Below are positions 3,418-8,752 of a stretch of 23,274 nucleotides of DNA, piece by piece (the first letter of the stretch is position 1; every line of letters begins with the position of its first letter). The notes below the pieces were generated by a model. It was not told the DNA's origin. It ran no database searches and saw only the letters and a list, made by a program, of their open reading frames with translations. Both the position numbers and the translations under genes were made by a program. Location of the stretch: IMG/VR virus record IMGVR_UViG_2571042372_000002, one strand, 5' to 3'. The DNA comes from a virus. Lineage: Duplodnaviria > Heunggongvirae > Uroviricota > Caudoviricetes.

Positions 3418-5006
3418 AACGAACGCCTGTCCTGATTGATGTGAACGGCGTTCCGCTTCGTGAGAGTCTCAGCTACAACGGGGGCGGTGCAGGATTTGGC
3501 GGGCAAATGGCTGAGTGGTTGCCACCGGCGCAGAGTGCCGATGCGGCCCTGCTGCCCGCGTTGCGTCTGGGGAATGCCCGGGCAGATGATCTGGTGCGCA
3601 ATAACGGAATAGCGGCTAATGCGGTGGCTCTGCATAAGGATCACATTGTCGGGCATATGTTTCTGATCAGCTACCGTCCGAACTGGCGCTGGCTGGGGAT
3701 GCGGGAGACCGCAGCAAAAAGCTTTGTCGATGAGGTGGAGGCGGCCTGGTCGGAATACGCCGAAGGGATGTTTGGCGAGATCGACGTGGAAGGAAAACGC
3801 ACGTTCACGGAATTTATCCGTGAAGGTGTGGGCGTTCATGCGTTTAACGGCGAAATCTTTGTGCAGCCGGTCTGGGATACGGAAACCACGCAGTTATTCC
3901 GTACGCGTTTTAAAGCCGTGAGTCCGAAACGGGTGGACACGCCTGGACACGGTATGGGGAACCGTTTTCTGCGGGCCGGTGTGGAGGTCGATCGATATGG
4001 CCGTGCCGTCGCGTACCATATCTGTGAGGATGATTTTCCGTTCTCTGGTAGTGGACGATGGGAACGGATCCCGCGTGAACTTCCCACCGGGCGTCCGGCC
4101 ATGCTGCATATTTTCGAGCCGGTGGAGGACGGGCAGACCCGTGGGGCTAATCAGTTTTACAGCGTCATGGAACGGCTGAAGATGCTCGATTCCCTGCAGG
4201 CAACACAGCTTCAGTCGGCCATAGTGAAGGCGATGTATGCAGCGACGATTGAAAGTGAACTTGATACCGAAAAGGCCTTTGAATATATCGCCGGCGCGCC
4301 ACAGGAGCAGAAGGATAATCCGCTTATTAATATTCTGGAGAAGTTTTCCAGCTGGTATGACACGAATAACGTGACACTGGGCGGTGTCAAAATTCCGCAC
4401 CTTTTCCCTGGTGATGATCTGAAACTACAGACTGCGCAGGATTCAGACAATGGATTTTCTGCGCTTGAACAGGCGCTGCTGCGGTATATCGCCGCCGGTC
4501 TTGGCGTTTCCTACGAACAGTTGTCCCGTGATTACTCGAAGGTCAGTTACTCAAGTGCCCGCGCCTCCGCCAATGAGTCGTGGCGCTATTTTATGGGGCG
4601 GCGAAAATTTATTGCGGCCCGGCTGGCCACGCAGATGTTTTCCTGCTGGCTGGAAGAGGCACTTCTTCGGGGGATTATTCGTCCGCCACGGGCACGTTTT
4701 GATTTTTATCAGGCGCGATCAGCCTGGTCACGGGCAGAGTGGATTGGTGCCGGAAGAATGGCCATTGACGGGCTCAAGGAAGTCCAGGAATCAGTGATGC
4801 GCATTGAGGCCGGACTGAGCACGTATGAGAAAGAGCTGGCGCTGATGGGCGAGGATTATCAGGACATTTTCCGCCAGCAGGTCAGGGAATCTGCTGAGCG
4901 GCAAAAAGCCGGACTCTCACGTCCGGTGTGGATAGAGCAGGCGTATCAGCAGCAGATAGCGGAGAGTCGCAGGCCGGAAGAGGAGACAACACCACGTGAG
5001 ACGTAA
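3414..5006 (+). CDS. B: portal protein (lambda gpB homolog)
   Basis: 530 aa, same size class as lambda B (533 aa) and same position. Motifs GGGAGFGGQ, ADDLVRNNG, FNGEIFVQ, GANQFYSVMERLKMLD, SALEQALLRYIAAGLGVSYEQLSR are conserved with lambda B as recalled. Confidence 0.93.
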   Translation: MKRTPVLIDVNGVPLRESLSYNGGGAGFGGQMAEWLPPAQSADAALLPALRLGNARADDLVRNNGIAANAVALHKDHIVGHMFLISYRPNWRWLGMRETAAKSFVDEVEAAWSEYAEGMFGEIDVEGKRTFTEFIREGVGVHAFNGEIFVQPVWDTETTQLFRTRFKAVSPKRVDTPGHGMGNRFLRAGVEVDRYGRAVAYHICEDDFPFSGSGRWERIPRELPTGRPAMLHIFEPVEDGQTRGANQFYSVMERLKMLDSLQATQLQSAIVKAMYAATIESELDTEKAFEYIAGAPQEQKDNPLINILEKFSSWYDTNNVTLGGVKIPHLFPGDDLKLQTAQDSDNGFSALEQALLRYIAAGLGVSYEQLSRDYSKVSYSSARASANESWRYFMGRRKFIAARLATQMFSCWLEEALLRGIIRPPRARFDFYQARSAWSRAEWIGAGRMAIDGLKEVQESVMRIEAGLSTYEKELALMGEDYQDIFRQQVRESAERQKAGLSRPVWIEQAYQQQIAESRRPEEETTPRET

Positions 5007-6501
5007 TCTTTCACACATTATTGCCGCAGCATTCAATGAACCGCTGCTTCTGGAGCCCGCCTATGCGCGGGTTTTCTTTTGCGCGCTCGGGCGCGAGATG
5101 GGGGCAGCAAGTCTTTCGGTACCACAACAGCAGGTACAGTTTGATGCTCCCGGAATGCTGGCTGAAACGGACGAGTACATGGCCGGAGGTAAACGACCGG
5201 CCCGTGTTTACCGGGTGGTGAACGGTATTGCTGTACTGCCGGTGACCGGCACGCTGGTGCACCGGCTGGGTGGTATGCGGCCATTTTCCGGAATGACAGG
5301 CTATGACGGCATTGTCGCCTGTCTTCAGCAGGCAATGGCGGATAGCCAGGTGCGGGGCGTACTGCTGGACATTGACAGTCCGGGCGGGCAGGCCGCCGGC
5401 GCGTTTGACTGCGCTGACATGATTTACCGCCTCCGTCAGCAGAAGCCGGTCTGGGCACTGTGCAATGACACGGCCTGTTCTGCAGCCATGCTGCTGGCGT
5501 CGGCCTGCTCCCGACGGCTGGTTACCCAGACATCCCGTATCGGCTCCATTGGCGTGATGATGAGCCATGTCAGCTATGCCGGTCATCTGGCGCAGGCCGG
5601 TGTGGATATCACGCTGATTTACTCAGGGGCGCACAAGGTGGATGGCAATCAGTTTGAAGCGTTGCCGGCAGAGGTTCGCCAGGACATGCAGCAGCGGATT
5701 GATGCGGCGCGCCGGATGTTTGCCGAAAAAGTGGCGATGTATACCGGTCTGTCTGTTGATGCCGTCACGGGAACAGAGGCTGCCGTTTTTGAAGGTCAGT
5801 CCGGCATTGAGGCCGGGCTGGCGGATGAATTAATCAATGCGTCGGATGCCATCAGTGTGATGGCCACGGCGCTGAACAGTAATGTCAGAGGAGGTACTAT
5901 GCCGCAATTAACTGCAACGGAAGCCGCCGCGCAGGAGAACCAGCGAGTGATGGGGATCCTGACATGCCAGGAAGCGAAAGGACGTGAACAGCTTGCCACG
6001 ATGCTGGCAGGACAACAGGGCATGAGCGTTGAACAGGCCCGGGCGATTCTGGCCGCGGCGGCACCGCAGCAGCCGGTGGCATCCACGCAGAGTGAAGCCG
6101 ATCGCATTATGGTGTGTGAAGAAGCGAACGGTCGTGAACAACTGGCGGCAACGCTGGCGGCGATGCCGGAGATGACGGTGGAAAAAGCCCGCCCGATCCT
6201 GGCTGCTTCACCGCAGGCGGATGCCGGACCATCACTCCGTGATCAGATCATGGCACTGGATGAGGCAAAAGGGGCTGAGGCGCAGGCTGAACAGCTGGCT
6301 GCCTGCCCGGGAATGACAGTGGAGAGCGCCCGGGCTGTGCTGGCTGCGGGATCAGGTAAGGCAGAACCGGTCTCTGCATCCACAACCGCCATGTTTGAAC
6401 ATTTCATGGCGAACCATTCACCGGCAGCGGTACAGGGTGGCGTGGCACAGACGTCAGCAGACGGTGATGCGGACGTGAAAATGCTCATGGCCATGCCATG
6501 A
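4996..6501 (+). CDS. C: head maturation protease / minor capsid protein C (S49 ClpP-like peptidase; lambda gpC homolog), extended C-terminus
   Basis: GTG start at 4996 overlapping the B stop. N-terminal half (FNEPLLLEPAYARVFFCAL, VVNGIAVLPVTGTLV, GAFDCADMIYR, RRLVTQTSRIGSIGVMM, ITLIYSGAHKVDGN) is collinear with lambda C. 501 aa versus 439 aa in lambda, owing to extra repeats in the C-terminal scaffold part. Confidence 0.9.
   Translation: MRRNLSHIIAAAFNEPLLLEPAYARVFFCALGREMGAASLSVPQQQVQFDAPGMLAETDEYMAGGKRPARVYRVVNGIAVLPVTGTLVHRLGGMRPFSGMTGYDGIVACLQQAMADSQVRGVLLDIDSPGGQAAGAFDCADMIYRLRQQKPVWALCNDTACSAAMLLASACSRRLVTQTSRIGSIGVMMSHVSYAGHLAQAGVDITLIYSGAHKVDGNQFEALPAEVRQDMQQRIDAARRMFAEKVAMYTGLSVDAVTGTEAAVFEGQSGIEAGLADELINASDAISVMATALNSNVRGGTMPQLTATEAAAQENQRVMGILTCQEAKGREQLATMLAGQQGMSVEQARAILAAAAPQQPVASTQSEADRIMVCEEANGREQLAATLAAMPEMTVEKARPILAASPQADAGPSLRDQIMALDEAKGAEAQAEQLAACPGMTVESARAVLAAGSGKAEPVSASTTAMFEHFMANHSPAAVQGGVAQTSADGDADVKMLMAMP
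5899..6501 (+). CDS. nu3: scaffolding protein Nu3 (in-frame internal start within C)
   Basis: Perfect AGGAGG (5889-5894) 4 nt upstream of ATG 5899, in frame with C, at the position equivalent to the lambda Nu3 start. Product MPQLTATEAAAQENQRVMGIL... contains the lambda Nu3-like motif (RIMGILNCEEAHGRE... in lambda). Confidence 0.7.
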   Translation: MPQLTATEAAAQENQRVMGILTCQEAKGREQLATMLAGQQGMSVEQARAILAAAAPQQPVASTQSEADRIMVCEEANGREQLAATLAAMPEMTVEKARPILAASPQADAGPSLRDQIMALDEAKGAEAQAEQLAACPGMTVESARAVLAAGSGKAEPVSASTTAMFEHFMANHSPAAVQGGVAQTSADGDADVKMLMAMP

Positions 6502-6537
6502 AGTCAGTGCTGACCATCAATAGGAGGTTTTTACAAT

Positions 6538-6885
6538 ATGGTGACGAAAACCATCACTGAACAGCGTGCGGAAGTACGTATTTTTGCCGGTAATGATCCG
6601 GCTCATACCGCCACAGGCAGCAGCGGGATTTCCTCGCCAACACCGGCACTGACGCCCCTGATGCTGGATGAAGCCACCGGGAAACTGGTGGTCTGGGACG
6701 GACAGAAAGCCGGTAGTGCGGTTGGCATACTGGTACTGCCGCTTGAAGGCACAGAGACGGCGCTGACGTATTACAAGTCGGGAACCTTTGCGACGGAGGC
6801 AATCCACTGGCCTGAAAGTGTGGATGAACACAAAAAGGCCAACGCCTTTGCTGGCAGTGCCCTGAGTCACGCGGCGCTGCCGTAA
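6538..6885 (+). CDS. D: head decoration protein (lambda gpD homolog)
   Basis: 115 aa; NDPAHTATG, TPLMLD, KLVVWDG, AVGIL, TYYKSGTF, KANAFAG match lambda gpD. AGGAGG SD at 6523-6528. Confidence 0.92.
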   Translation: MVTKTITEQRAEVRIFAGNDPAHTATGSSGISSPTPALTPLMLDEATGKLVVWDGQKAGSAVGILVLPLEGTETALTYYKSGTFATEAIHWPESVDEHKKANAFAGSALSHAALP

Positions 6886-6903
6886 CACGTTATCAGGCCA
6901 CCG

Positions 6904-6923
6904 CGGTGGCCTGACTGATTTCT
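6904..6923. repeat. perfect 20-bp palindrome CAGGCCACCGCGGTGGCCTG in the D-E intergenic region (RNA stem-loop candidate)
   Basis: Read directly: the 20-mer equals its own reverse complement. It lies between the D stop (6885) and E start (6943). No T-run follows, so it is not a canonical intrinsic terminator. Confidence 0.5.
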
Positions 6924-6942
6924 GAATGAAAGGAACTGATTT

Positions 6943-7971
6943 ATGGGATTGTTTACGACCCGCCAGTTACTCGGTTATACCGAACAAAAAGTTAAATTTC
7001 GTGCGCTGTTTCTGGAGCTGTTTTTCCGCCGTACGGTGAATTTCCATACCGAAGAGGTGATGCTGGACAAAATTACCGGAAAAACGCCGGTGGCGGCCTA
7101 TGTCTCCCCGGTTGTTGAAGGAAAAGTGCTGCGTCATCGTGGTGGTGAAACCCGCGTGTTGCGTCCGGGCTACGTCAAGCCGAAACACGAATTTAATTAC
7201 CAGCAGGCGGTTGAGCGCCTTCCTGGTGAAGATCCATCTCAACTGAATGATCCGGCTTACCGCCGTCTGCGTATCATTACCGATAACCTCAAACAGGAAG
7301 AGCACGCGATTGTCCAGGTGGAAGAAATGCAGGCGGTAAATGCTGTGTTGTATGGCAAATACACCATGGAAGGAGACCAGTTCGAGAAAATTGAGGTCGA
7401 TTTTGGCAGGTCGACGAAGAATAACATCACTCAGGGTAGTGGTAAGGAGTGGTCAAAACAGGATCGTGACACGTTCGATCCTACACATGATATTGACCTC
7501 TACTGCGACCTGGCCAGCGGTCTTGTGAATATTGCCATTATGGACGGTACCGTCTGGCGTCTTCTGAATGGTTTTAAGCTGTTCCGCGAAAAACTGGATA
7601 CCCGTCGCGGTTCAAATTCTCAACTCGAAACGGCAGTGAAAGATCTGGGCGCAGTGGTGTCCTTCAAGGGGTATTACGGCGATCTGGCCATTGTGGTGGC
7701 GAAAACGTCTTATATAGCAGAAGACGGTATCGAAAAACGTTATCTTCCAGATGGCATGCTGGTTCTGGGGAATACTGCTGCAGATGGGATCCGTTGTTAC
7801 GGTGCCATTCAGGATGCTCAGGCGTTGTCCGAAGGTGTGGTGGCCTCTTCCCGTTATCCGAAACACTGGCTGACGGTAGGGGATCCCGCCCGTGAATTTA
7901 CCATGACGCAGTCCGCGCCGCTGATGGTGTTGCCGGACCCGGATGAGTTTGTGGTGGTACAGGTGAAATAA
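6943..7971 (+). CDS. E: major capsid protein (lambda gpE homolog)
   Basis: 342 aa versus 341 aa in lambda, same position after D. N-terminal region (TTRQLLGYTEQKVKF..LFLELFFRRT) resembles lambda E (MSMYTTAQLLAANEQKFKFDPLFLRLFFRES). Confidence 0.93.
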   Translation: MGLFTTRQLLGYTEQKVKFRALFLELFFRRTVNFHTEEVMLDKITGKTPVAAYVSPVVEGKVLRHRGGETRVLRPGYVKPKHEFNYQQAVERLPGEDPSQLNDPAYRRLRIITDNLKQEEHAIVQVEEMQAVNAVLYGKYTMEGDQFEKIEVDFGRSTKNNITQGSGKEWSKQDRDTFDPTHDIDLYCDLASGLVNIAIMDGTVWRLLNGFKLFREKLDTRRGSNSQLETAVKDLGAVVSFKGYYGDLAIVVAKTSYIAEDGIEKRYLPDGMLVLGNTAADGIRCYGAIQDAQALSEGVVASSRYPKHWLTVGDPAREFTMTQSAPLMVLPDPDEFVVVQVK

Positions 7972-7978
7972 TCCGTGA

Positions 7979-8008
7979 GCGGGGGCGAAATGCCCCCGTG
8001 TCTTTTTT
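7979..8008 (+). terminator. intrinsic-terminator-like hairpin immediately after the major capsid gene
   Basis: CGGGGGC-GAAAT-GCCCCCG (7-bp GC stem) followed by TGTCTTTTTT, starting 8 nt after the E stop and ending before the FI ATG at 8023. Confidence 0.6.
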
Positions 8009-8022
8009 CACAGGGGGCTGAT

Positions 8023-8406
8023 ATGGCAACGAAAGAGCAAAATCTGAAACGTCTTCGTCAACTGGCTGACCTGCTGGGGCGCGAGGCGGATATATCCGGG
8101 AGTGCCGCAGAGATAGCGCAGCGGGTGGCAGAATGGGAAGAGGAGCTTGCTGTTTCCCCGGAGGGCATTATGCACTCTGATGAGAGCGGGGCTGATCAAA
8201 ATCACACAGACGATGGTGAGCAGTTGAACAACACGGATGCTCCGGATGATGTTAAAGCCGTCCGGGTACGGAAGTGCCTGCAAGTAATGGGGTATTGCCC
8301 GGAGACAGGTCGTCCCGTTGAGCTGGCGTTACGGGGTATGCGTGTTCTGGTGCCATCATCACTGGCAACGGCCATGATACAGCACGGAATGGCTGTTTAT
8401 GCGTGA
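8023..8406 (+). CDS. FI: DNA packaging / head assembly protein FI homolog
   Basis: Position between E and FII. Start placed at ATG 8023 with AGGGGG SD, giving 127 aa (about 132 aa in lambda), because the upstream GTG 7975 would put the terminator hairpin inside the coding region. Sequence is diverged from lambda FI; assignment is mainly by synteny and size. Confidence 0.7.
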   Translation: MATKEQNLKRLRQLADLLGREADISGSAAEIAQRVAEWEEELAVSPEGIMHSDESGADQNHTDDGEQLNNTDAPDDVKAVRVRKCLQVMGYCPETGRPVELALRGMRVLVPSSLATAMIQHGMAVYA

Positions 8407-8752
8407 TTTTCAGAATGCCTTTGATGCCGCCCTTGCCGGGGTGGACAGTACGATTGTTGAAGTGATGGGCATCAGTGCGCAGTTCACCTCCGGTGCACAG
8501 CGTGGCGGCGAGGTTCATGGCGTTTTTGACGATCCGGAGTCGCTGGGTTTTGCCAGTAGTGGGATCCGTATTGAAGGAAGTAACCCGTCATTATTTGTGC
8601 TTACGGATACGGTTTGTGCTGTACGGCGTGGTGACACGCTGACCATTAACGGCGAGATGTTCTGGGTGGACCGTGTTTCTCCGGATGACGGAGGGAGTTG
8701 TTATCTCTGGCTCAACCGGGGGCAACCACCTGCAGTTAACCGGCGACGATAA
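8399..8752 (+). CDS. FII: head-tail connector protein FII homolog
   Basis: 117 aa; C-terminal ...RGDTLTINGEMFWVDRVSPDDGGSCYLWLNRGQPPAVNRRR is near-identical to the lambda FII C-terminus as recalled. Overlaps the FI stop. Confidence 0.92.
   Translation: MRDFQNAFDAALAGVDSTIVEVMGISAQFTSGAQRGGEVHGVFDDPESLGFASSGIRIEGSNPSLFVLTDTVCAVRRGDTLTINGEMFWVDRVSPDDGGSCYLWLNRGQPPAVNRRR

What the first reader, a model, noticed from the sequence alone, without database searches (positions are those of the whole stretch)
7979..8008. Intrinsic-terminator-like hairpin directly after the major capsid gene
A GC-rich 7-bp stem with a T6 run lies between E and FI, inside a late operon normally read under Q antitermination. 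It may lower downstream transcript levels relative to E, or stabilise the E mRNA 3' end. It also argues for the FI start at ATG 8023 rather than the upstream GTG at 7975.
Basis: seen in the sequence. Interest (0 to 1): 0.4.

Follow-up and report, generated by a model that had tools for sequence, protein, structure and literature searches.

The report
Terminator-type hairpin after the capsid gene
A real, evolutionarily maintained terminator-like RNA hairpin sits right after the major capsid gene of this phage-21-type prophage; hairpins like it follow capsid genes in lambda and most relatives, so it is an ordinary though functionally untested expression-balancing element.

Summary
A hairpin lies at 7977-8002 (core 7979-7999: seven G:C pairs plus one G.U, GAAAU loop) and abuts a U6 run at 8003-8008. 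It sits in the 51-nt gap between an E-family major capsid gene and an FI gene. It folds at -17.7 kcal/mol (z -3.8) and ranks first among terminator-like sites in the window. Under strict criteria only three such sites exist in 23 kb, all on the coding strand: after D, after E and after J.

The window is a phage-21-type lambdoid late operon. The same junction occurs in 1,560 of 5,426 complete E. coli genomes. Lambda, Gifsy-1, Chi and others carry unrelated hairpin sequences at the same position. Of 46 distinct capsid-downstream sequences, 91% have a strong hairpin (3% in controls) and 46% have a U-rich tail (3.8% background). One close variant shows a compensatory G:C to A:U change.

FI starts at ATG 8023. 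The GTG at 7975 is excluded by an in-frame stop and by frameshifting indels in relatives.

Function is inferred, not shown. Most likely Q21-loaded polymerase reads through the element. The hairpin then protects the upstream D-E message, and polymerase lacking Q terminates there. This kind of element is already recognised, so interest is low.

The parts
6943..7971 (+). Major capsid protein gene (lambda E / phage 21 gp7 homolog), the cistron the hairpin follows
   Evidence: ORF listed. Pfam Phage_cap_E, E = 6e-64. 100% protein identity to phage 21 gp7.
7977..8002 (+). RNA hairpin. Core stem 7979-7986 / 7992-7999 (7 G:C pairs plus G.U), loop GAAAU 7987-7991, two outer pairs (7977-7978 with 8001-8002) across a bulged G8000
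   Evidence: -17.7 kcal/mol, z -3.8. Among 8 homologous variants 63 of 63 pair cells are paired, with one compensatory G:C to A:U and one G:C to G.U change.
8003..8008 (+). U6 tract directly abutting the extended stem
   Evidence: Across the E family a tail with at least 5 T of 8 follows the hairpin in 46% of distinct loci, against 3.8% background.
8013..8017 (+). Shine-Dalgarno (GGGGG) of FI, 5 nt upstream of the ATG. It reads GGAGG in PhiR12-type relatives
   Evidence: RBS annotated at the equivalent place in M81255 and OL657228.
8023..8406 (+). FI (DNA-packaging protein) gene, true start at ATG 8023
   Evidence: Pfam Packaging_FI, profile positions 1-131 matched by residues 3-124. Annotations. 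In-frame stop and frameshift evidence against GTG 7975.
6893..6924 (+). Sibling terminator-type hairpin plus U-rich tail between D/shp and the capsid gene; together the two elements bracket the capsid cistron
   Evidence: (-17.4 kcal/mol, z -5.0). Analogous hairpins follow D in lambda and Gifsy-1. The mEp237 record annotates a rho-independent terminator there.
19802..19831 (+). Third strict terminator-type site of the window, between J and a tail-fibre gene (context, same class of element)
   Evidence: (-15.7 kcal/mol, z -4.3). Flanking genes identified.

Best explanation
The element is a genuine, selectively maintained intrinsic-terminator-type hairpin in the mRNA of a phage-21-type late operon, placed 5-7 nt after the stop codon of the major capsid gene. 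It is the local version of a class of elements that is conserved in position but not in sequence. This class follows about 90% of E-family capsid genes and, in lambdoid phages, also follows the decoration gene D. The most likely mechanism has three parts. (1) During lytic growth the Q21-loaded RNA polymerase transcribes through it, because the Q torus prevents hairpin formation at the RNA exit channel. (2) Once extruded, the hairpin forms in the transcript and acts as a barrier to 3'-to-5' exonucleases. After downstream endonucleolytic cleavage or occasional termination, the D-E segment therefore outlives the FI-and-beyond segment. This helps to supply the roughly 400 copies of capsid and decoration protein needed per head. 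(3) Any polymerase that lacks Q stops here. Shown: the structure, its statistical significance, its conservation, the compensatory change, the enrichment of the U-tail, and the FI start at ATG 8023. Inferred: read-through under Q, the stabilising effect, and termination of Q-less polymerase.
For: Structure and significance. An identical hairpin is present in phage 21, PhiR12, PhiR5_1 and 72 of 80 IMG/VR relatives; the variants keep pairing or are homopolymer indels. Pair counts: 100% paired, one compensatory change, slid controls 48-72%. Unrelated hairpins sit at the same place in lambda, Gifsy-1, mEp237, 705R4, two Vibrio phages, Chi, Proteus Saba, Xanthomonas FoX4 and Erythrobacter R22L. In a dereplicated sample of 46 distinct downstream sequences, the core hairpin is -9 kcal/mol or stronger in 91%, against 3% of capsid-coding windows and 3% of shuffles, Mann-Whitney p about 2e-23. 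A U-rich tail is present in 46% against 3.8% background, p about 4e-18. Virulent phages without Q, such as Chi, Saba and FoX4, also have the hairpin. This ties it to the capsid gene rather than to lysogeny. [quoted passage not shown] Terminators enhance upstream mRNA stability (abstract of PMC11696848). Terminators lie immediately after capsid genes in T3/T7 (Tphi, inefficient; PMC3276506) and LUZ100 (PMC10134795). Inefficient terminators are used to balance phage gene expression.
Against: No transcript data were available for this element or for lambda's equivalent. The EHEC Term-seq paper has no supplement held, and no paper found maps 3' ends here. A pure exonuclease barrier does not need a U-tract, yet U-tails are strongly enriched, which points to some selection on termination itself. 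From my own memory, not re-read because the paper is not held: Sampson et al. 1988 (title confirmed) attributed the large differences in lambda late protein yields mainly to translation initiation, which would limit the size of any mRNA-level effect. The hairpin is among the three most stable sense-strand hairpins of its 4-kb locus in only about half of the loci, so stability alone does not mark it out. The 46 sequences are not phylogenetically independent; about 20 of them are variants of the lambda-type GGCCC-UUCG-GGGCC stem.
Confidence: 0.5

Rival explanations
1. It is a fail-safe terminator only. Its selected role is to stop RNA polymerase that has not been modified by Q, such as spurious initiation inside the prophage or leak-through past tR'. 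It would then keep downstream head-completion and tail genes silent in lysogens, with no role on the Q-driven transcript.
For: It has the full intrinsic-terminator signature, including the U6 tract. U-tails are enriched family-wide, and an RNA stabiliser would not need them. Q21-loaded polymerase should ignore the element. The phage L genome paper proposes this role for intra-late-operon terminators (PMC8022706).
Against: It does not explain why the element sits specifically after the capsid and decoration genes across very distant phages. It also does not explain its presence in virulent phages with no lysogeny or Q, such as Chi, Saba and FoX4. Strict terminators are absent from the other roughly 20 gene junctions of the window, so silencing would be patchy.
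Confidence: 0.2
2. It is a true attenuator of the Q-driven transcript. A fixed fraction of Q-loaded polymerases terminates here and at the sibling site after D, stepping down transcription of all downstream genes relative to D and E.
For: The geometry is canonical for a terminator. It is analogous to leaky terminators after capsid genes in T7/T3 and LUZ100 and to read-through terminators in LUZ7. The hairpins are positioned after the two most abundant virion proteins.
Against: The Q21 structure predicts near-complete suppression of hairpin-dependent termination over tens of kilobases. Downstream genes include the major tail protein, which is also needed in high copy number. The hairpin starts 5-7 nt after the stop codon (family median 8.5 nt; 34 of 46 are within 12 nt). 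A terminating or trailing ribosome would therefore overlap the 5' arm and further reduce termination; this last step is my inference.
Confidence: 0.15
3. It is a translational insulator or switch. The hairpin uncouples the heavy ribosome traffic on the capsid cistron from FI. In the 21-type lineage its C-rich 3' arm can alternatively pair with the FI Shine-Dalgarno when a terminating ribosome holds the 5' arm open, damping FI translation.
For: The FI SD (GGGGGC) duplicates the 5' arm. With nt 7969-7983 constrained to be unpaired, the SD unpaired probability falls from 0.37 to 0.12 in the window, 0.41 to 0.27 in PhiR12 and 0.46 to 0.27 in L098. FI is needed only in low, non-structural amounts (established knowledge of lambda gpFI).
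Against: There is no such effect in lambda or Gifsy-1, so it cannot explain the family-wide conservation. C-rich arms complement any G-rich SD by chance. The ribosome-on-stop state is transient. PhiR12-type relatives weaken the pairing by changing the SD to GGAGG, a better SD.
Confidence: 0.08
4. It is a chance inverted repeat or a neutral leftover with no function.
For: Coding regions of these loci contain a few hairpins of similar stability. The 71-nt context gives only z = -1.65.
Against: The hairpin recurs at this position in 91% of distinct loci against 3% of controls, with a U-tail in 46% against 3.8%. Pairing is kept through a compensatory change. The site is on the sense strand only and intergenic only.
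Confidence: 0.03

Closest known systems
Lambda E-FI intergenic hairpin (AUGGCCC-UUCG-GGGCCAU followed by UGUUUCUC) and the lambda D-E hairpin (AAAGGCCGC-CUGU-GCGGCUUU followed by a U run)
   Same: Same position in the homologous operon: directly after E, before the FI SD, with a sibling after D. Both are GC-rich stems with a U-rich tail on the sense strand.
   Different: The sequence is unrelated (G5/C5 stem and GAAAU loop here, a C(UUCG)G tetraloop hairpin in lambda). The stem here is stronger (-16.8 against -12.3 kcal/mol for the core) and the U-tract is more canonical (U6 against UGUUUCUC). Neither element is annotated in the records examined.
Intra-late-operon terminator after the procapsid gene module of P22-like phage L
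   Same: It is a predicted rho-independent terminator inside a Q-type antiterminated late operon, just after the capsid-assembly genes. The authors state that such terminators are not unique and that their roles are unknown, and they suggest partial termination or blocking of spurious transcription (PMC8022706).
   Different: The capsid gene family is different (P22 gp5, not E family). There is no sequence relationship, and that element is also untested experimentally.
Tphi of T7/T3 and the terminator after the capsid gene of LUZ100
   Same: These are stem-loop terminators immediately downstream of the major capsid gene. They are leaky and are thought to balance capsid expression against downstream gene expression.
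   Different: They act on single-subunit phage RNA polymerases and have longer stems of 15-17 bp. Here the polymerase is host RNAP carrying Q, which is predicted to ignore hairpins.
Intercistronic mRNA-stabilising hairpins of polycistronic operons (for example the malE-malF REP, the Rhodobacter puf hairpins and the T4 C(UUCG)G hairpins; from my own knowledge) and terminator-mediated stabilisation of upstream mRNA (PMC11696848)
   Same: Each is a stable stem-loop at the 3' side of the most highly expressed cistron of an operon, proposed to block 3' exonucleases.
   Different: The effect on half-life has not been measured for this element. Unlike REP it is a single short hairpin with a U-tract and is not a dispersed repeat.

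Membership tests
Intrinsic (Rho-independent) terminator | GC-rich stem of about 5-14 bp with a 3-8 nt loop | tested here: met
   Core of 8 pairs (7 G:C) extended to 10 pairs with one bulge, 5-nt loop, -17.7 kcal/mol, z -3.8.
Intrinsic (Rho-independent) terminator | U-rich tract immediately 3' of the stem | tested here: met
   U6 at 8003-8008 abuts the extended stem; 7 T within 8 nt after the core stem.
Intrinsic (Rho-independent) terminator | On the transcribed strand, in non-coding sequence downstream of a stop codon | tested here: met
   On the + strand, 5-7 nt after the capsid stop codon, inside a 51-nt gap. There is no terminator-like tail on the - strand.
Intrinsic (Rho-independent) terminator | Base pairing maintained in evolution | tested here: met
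   63 of 63 cells are paired in 8 variants, with one compensatory G:C to A:U and one G:C to G.U change; slid controls give 48-72%. Statistical support within the lineage is weak (64 of 500 shuffles). The strong support is cross-family recurrence at the position.
Intrinsic (Rho-independent) terminator | Generates RNA 3' ends and releases polymerase in vitro or in vivo | not testable with these tools
   No 3'-end data were accessible.
Intercistronic mRNA-stabilising hairpin | Stable stem-loop at the 3' side of a highly expressed cistron within a polycistronic transcript | tested here: met
   It follows the major capsid gene, and a sibling follows the decoration gene.
Intercistronic mRNA-stabilising hairpin | The upstream segment has a longer half-life that depends on the hairpin and on 3' exonucleases | not testable with these tools
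   This needs rifampicin-chase or Northern experiments.
Leaky terminator directly after a phage major capsid gene (T7 Tphi type) | Located immediately 3' of the major capsid gene | tested here: met
   the same holds in 42 of 46 distinct E-family loci.
Leaky terminator directly after a phage major capsid gene (T7 Tphi type) | Recognised by the phage's own single-subunit RNA polymerase, with measured partial read-through | tested here: not met
   Lambdoid late operons are transcribed by host RNAP carrying Q, and the window encodes no phage RNAP. The resemblance is functional analogy, not membership.
Any curated Rfam RNA family | Score at or above the family gathering threshold | tested here: not met
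   There are no hits at gathering thresholds in the whole window. The permissive scan of 7800-8200 gives only noise; the best is ylbH leader at 16.6 bits against a threshold of 50, E = 0.3.

The most novel reading that the evidence does not exclude
In the phage-21 lineage the element may be a ribosome-gated three-way RNA switch. The hairpin starts 5-7 nt after the capsid stop codon, so a ribosome terminating on E holds the 5' arm open. This would both prevent termination on translated transcripts and free the C-rich 3' arm to sequester the FI Shine-Dalgarno, which is a copy of the 5' arm. One 50-nt element would then couple capsid translation to transcript integrity and to repression of FI. 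A related reading is that termination or processing here releases a stable, hairpin-plus-U-tail 3' fragment that acts as an Hfq-binding small RNA in the many E. coli lysogens that carry it.
Probability: 0.07. Interest if true: 0.5.

Novelty: new member of a known kind. Interest (0 to 1): 0.2.

Why it matters
Taken alone, the element is ordinary: a terminator-type hairpin after a phage capsid gene. Two things give it modest value. First, the survey shows that a hairpin directly after E-family capsid genes is close to universal (91% of distinct loci, about 20 unrelated stem sequences, in both temperate and virulent phages). Yet a 2020 lambdoid-phage genome paper still calls the roles of such intra-operon terminators 'not known'. 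Because Q21 is predicted to abolish hairpin-dependent termination, the phage-21 version is a clean system for separating the RNA-level role from the transcription-level role. Second, it settles an annotation point, since FI starts at ATG 8023. The junction is present in about 29% of complete E. coli genomes, so any effect would apply to a very large number of prophages.

Tried and rejected
- GTG 7975 as the FI start: rejected. Relatives have an in-frame TAA or frameshifting indels, there is no SD before the GTG, and the Pfam model begins at the ATG.
- A known RNA family: no Rfam hit at gathering or permissive thresholds.
- A bidirectional terminator: rejected, because the - strand hairpin has no U tail.
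- An RNase III site: rejected on stem length (8-10 bp); this rests on established knowledge and was not computed.
- A larger conserved structure: the outer helix UCCGUGA/UCAC.AGG seen is lost in L098, and the 71-nt fold is not significant.
- A promoter in the gap: none was found. Promoter-like sites in the window are at or below the shuffle expectation (9 against 11.5).
- A mosaic or recombination boundary at the hairpin: homology breakpoints lie inside FI (about 8145) or just before the E stop codon (Gifsy-1), not at the hairpin.
- 'The hairpin after E is the strongest in its locus': not generally true. It ranks in the top three in about half of the loci.
- Direct experimental evidence: searches for Term-seq, 3'-end or mRNA-stability data on lambda-type late operons found nothing usable. 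Sampson et al. 1988 is not held.
- The first related-loci scan returned only near-identical relatives. Diversity had to come from tblastn sampling and from the one-genome-per-species collection.

Full report
WHAT IS THERE

Window 7800-8200 shows the capsid ORF ending at TAA 7969-7971. It is followed by TCCGTGA, then GCGGGGGC-GAAAT-GCCCCCGT (7979-7999), then GTC TTTTTT (T6 = 8003-8008), then CACA GGGGG CTGAT ATG (8023). The ORF list places a 342-aa ORF at 6943-7971. A 143-aa ORF runs from GTG 7975, and its internal ATG at 8023 gives a 127-aa protein. Pfam identifies the three genes as D (HDPD), E (Phage_cap_E, E = 6e-64) and FI (Packaging_FI). The FI model is covered from profile position 1 by residue 3 of the ATG-started protein.

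IS THE HAIRPIN MORE THAN CHANCE?

- The consensus scan ranks it first of 42 terminator-like sites, against 18.1 +/- 4.5 in shuffles.
- My stricter scan required at least 7 pairs, at least 5 G:C pairs and at least 5 T of 8. It leaves three distinct sites in 23,274 bases, none on the minus strand: 7979-7999 after E, 6893-6914 after D, and 19802-19821 between J and a tail-fibre gene.
- Folded alone, 7976-8008 gives -17.7 kcal/mol with z = -3.8, and 0 of 200 shuffles fold as well. The predicted structure adds two outer pairs across a bulged G8000, so the U6 run directly abuts the stem, which is the canonical terminator geometry.
- The reverse complement also folds but has no U tail.
- A 71-nt context is not significant (z = -1.65), so there is no evidence for a larger structure.
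- Rfam finds nothing.

WHAT THE LOCUS IS

Megablast shows phage-21-type head genes. Phage 21 (M81255, OL657228) is 99.4% identical over most of 6400-8500, and the PhiR12 phages are 93% identical over all of it. The capsid protein is 100% identical to phage 21 gp7. None of the records annotates a terminator here. All of them start FI at the ATG 52 nt after the capsid stop codon and annotate an RBS just before it. The junction occurs in 1,560 of 5,426 complete E. coli genomes, at 2,311 places.

THE FI START

In L098/L099 (E. coli and Shigella flexneri prophages) the hairpin loop reads CTAAAT. This places a TAA in the GTG frame. PhiR5_1 has an extra base before the ATG, L057 has an extra G in the 5' arm, and phage 204576 lacks a C in the 3' arm. 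In all of these the GTG is out of frame or blocked, yet the protein still starts MATKE... at the ATG. The GTG has no SD in front of it. ATG 8023 is therefore the FI start.

CONSERVATION WITHIN THE LINEAGE

- Among 80 IMG/VR loci with 98-100% identical capsid protein, 72 carry the identical hairpin.
- Four of them have C to T in the 3' arm, which keeps a G.U pair.
- L098 has GGGAGC / GCTCCC in place of GGGGGC / GCCCCC, a compensatory G:C to A:U change.
- On the 8-variant alignment, 63 of 63 cells are paired, against 48-72% when the 3' partners are slid.
- With so few variants the shuffle control is weak (64 of 500), so this is supporting evidence only.

CONSERVATION ACROSS THE FAMILY

Lambda has ATGGCCC-TTCG-GGGCCAT followed by TGTTTCTC two bases after the E stop codon, and AAAGGCCGC-CTGT-GCGGCTTT followed by a T run after D. 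Gifsy-1 has two further unrelated hairpins at the same two places.

A spread sample of annotated phages, with capsid identity from 59% down to about 30%, shows a 34-82 nt gap after the capsid gene in every case. Each gap holds a stable hairpin. The sample comprised mEp237, 705R4, Vibrio ST2-1pr and K245, Chi, Proteus Saba, Xanthomonas FoX4 and Erythrobacter R22L.

I then scanned the one-genome-per-species collection with an E-family alignment and dereplicated the result. This gave 46 distinct 60-nt capsid-downstream sequences, which by eye comprise about 20 mutually unalignable stems.

| Measure | After capsid stop | Control |
|---|---|---|
| Best simple hairpin, median | -12.8 kcal/mol | -3.9 (capsid-coding windows); -3.3 (dinucleotide shuffles) |
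| Hairpin of -9 kcal/mol or stronger | 91% | 3% (coding windows); 3% (shuffles) |
| Tail with at least 5 T of 8 | 46% (52% for gamma-proteobacterial hosts) | 3.8% (random sense-strand positions) |

The hairpin difference gives Mann-Whitney p of about 2e-23, and the tail enrichment gives p of about 4e-18. Both halves of the terminator signature are therefore selected at this position. The hairpin begins a median of 8.5 nt after the stop codon, and 34 of 46 begin within 12 nt.

Two caveats apply. The 46 sequences are not phylogenetically independent. The hairpin after E is among the top three sense-strand hairpins of its 4-kb locus in only about half of the loci. What is special is the recurrence at this position, not extreme stability.

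HOW IT MOST LIKELY WORKS

Established knowledge: lambdoid late operons are transcribed from PR' by host polymerase carrying Q. [quoted passage not shown] Efficient attenuation of the Q-driven transcript is therefore unlikely here. The hairpin can still form once the RNA has left the nozzle. The hairpin is tied to the capsid gene and, in lambdoid phages, to D, the two proteins needed in the highest copy number. It is also present in virulent phages that have no lysogeny. My preferred reading is therefore an expression-balancing element that acts mainly at the RNA level as a 3'-exonuclease barrier for the D-E segment. The terminator property would serve against Q-less polymerase and occasionally create the protected 3' end.

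Terminator-mediated stabilisation of upstream mRNA is documented in general (PMC11696848). Leaky terminators directly after capsid genes are known in T3/T7 and LUZ100. The phage L genome paper describes the same puzzle in P22-like phages. [quoted passage not shown]

The enrichment of U-tails keeps the fail-safe and attenuator rivals alive. I recall that Sampson et al. 1988 attributed lambda late-protein ratios mainly to translation initiation; the paper is not held and only its title was confirmed. That recollection limits the effect size I would expect at the mRNA level. No transcript-level data could be obtained.

A SPECULATIVE EXTRA

In the 21-type lineage the FI SD (GGGGGC) copies the hairpin's 5' arm. 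I held the first 15 nt after and including the stop codon single-stranded, to mimic a terminating ribosome. The 3' arm then pairs with the SD, and the SD unpaired probability falls from 0.37 to 0.12. The fall is smaller in PhiR12 and L098, and there is no effect in lambda or Gifsy-1. This is lineage-specific and is easily explained by composition, so I keep it only as a low-probability novel reading.

VERDICT

- The FI-start inference is confirmed on independent grounds.
- The functional interpretation is reasonable but untested, and the published Q21 mechanism shifts weight from attenuation towards RNA stabilisation or Q-less termination.
- The element is an unannotated member of a well-known kind, so interest is low.

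Noticed in passing
L105-L120 and other loci (for example contigs of Kitasatospora papulosa, Neobacillus notoginsengisoli, Chromatium weissei, Leeuwenhoekiella nanhaiensis and an Akkermansia MAG): About twenty genome assemblies of unrelated bacteria contain lambda-type capsid loci. Their downstream sequence is identical or nearly identical to lambda's, often on low-coverage contigs of about 48.4-48.5 kb. This is almost certainly phage lambda DNA contaminating the assemblies, not prophages of those organisms.
   Followed up: partly
window 8023-8406 (FI), breakpoint near 8145: FI is mosaic. Phage 21 matches the 6400-8500 region in two pieces (89% coverage), and PhiR12-type phages match throughout at 93%. 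The homology of phages D2 and PhiR5_1 stops at about 8145, inside FI.
   Followed up: no
window 6893-6924 and 19802-19831: Two further strict terminator-type sites lie after the decoration gene and between J and a tail-fibre gene. With the E-FI site they are the only three in the 23 kb, and all are on the coding strand.
   Followed up: partly
window about 5790-5830, inside the protease/scaffold gene 4996-6501: A sense-strand hairpin of about -20.6 kcal/mol lies in the region corresponding to the three 'Tri box' repeats annotated as 'function unknown' in the phage 21 record M81255.
   Followed up: no
MT713136.1 (Aeromonas phage AP1, 254 kb) 250152-250396; matches window 6942-7186: A 245-bp stretch is 99.6% identical to the start of the capsid gene in the window. 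It has no annotated feature and lies near the end of a jumbo-phage record, so it is probably an assembly chimera or contamination (H21).
   Followed up: no
OR849869.1 'Staphylococcus phage SA 1298 Kay' (11.6 kb), H77: This record carries an E-family capsid gene that scores identically to Chi-like Salmonella phages. The host label looks wrong, or the record is contaminated.
   Followed up: no
L098/L099 (E. coli ECMA0423, Shigella flexneri SFBU1023), 2527-2583: This variant of the hairpin carries the compensatory change and also has a different tail (GTTTTTCATTC) and a canonical AGGAG SD. The whole 50-nt spacer has diverged much faster than the 94%-identical capsid gene next to it.
   Followed up: partly
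literature, PMC2147009: Osterhout et al. cite an earlier array study (Chen et al.) that reported gpE signal in uninduced lambda lysogens, which they themselves did not reproduce. If real, it could reflect a stable capsid-gene RNA segment bounded by the two hairpins.
   Followed up: no
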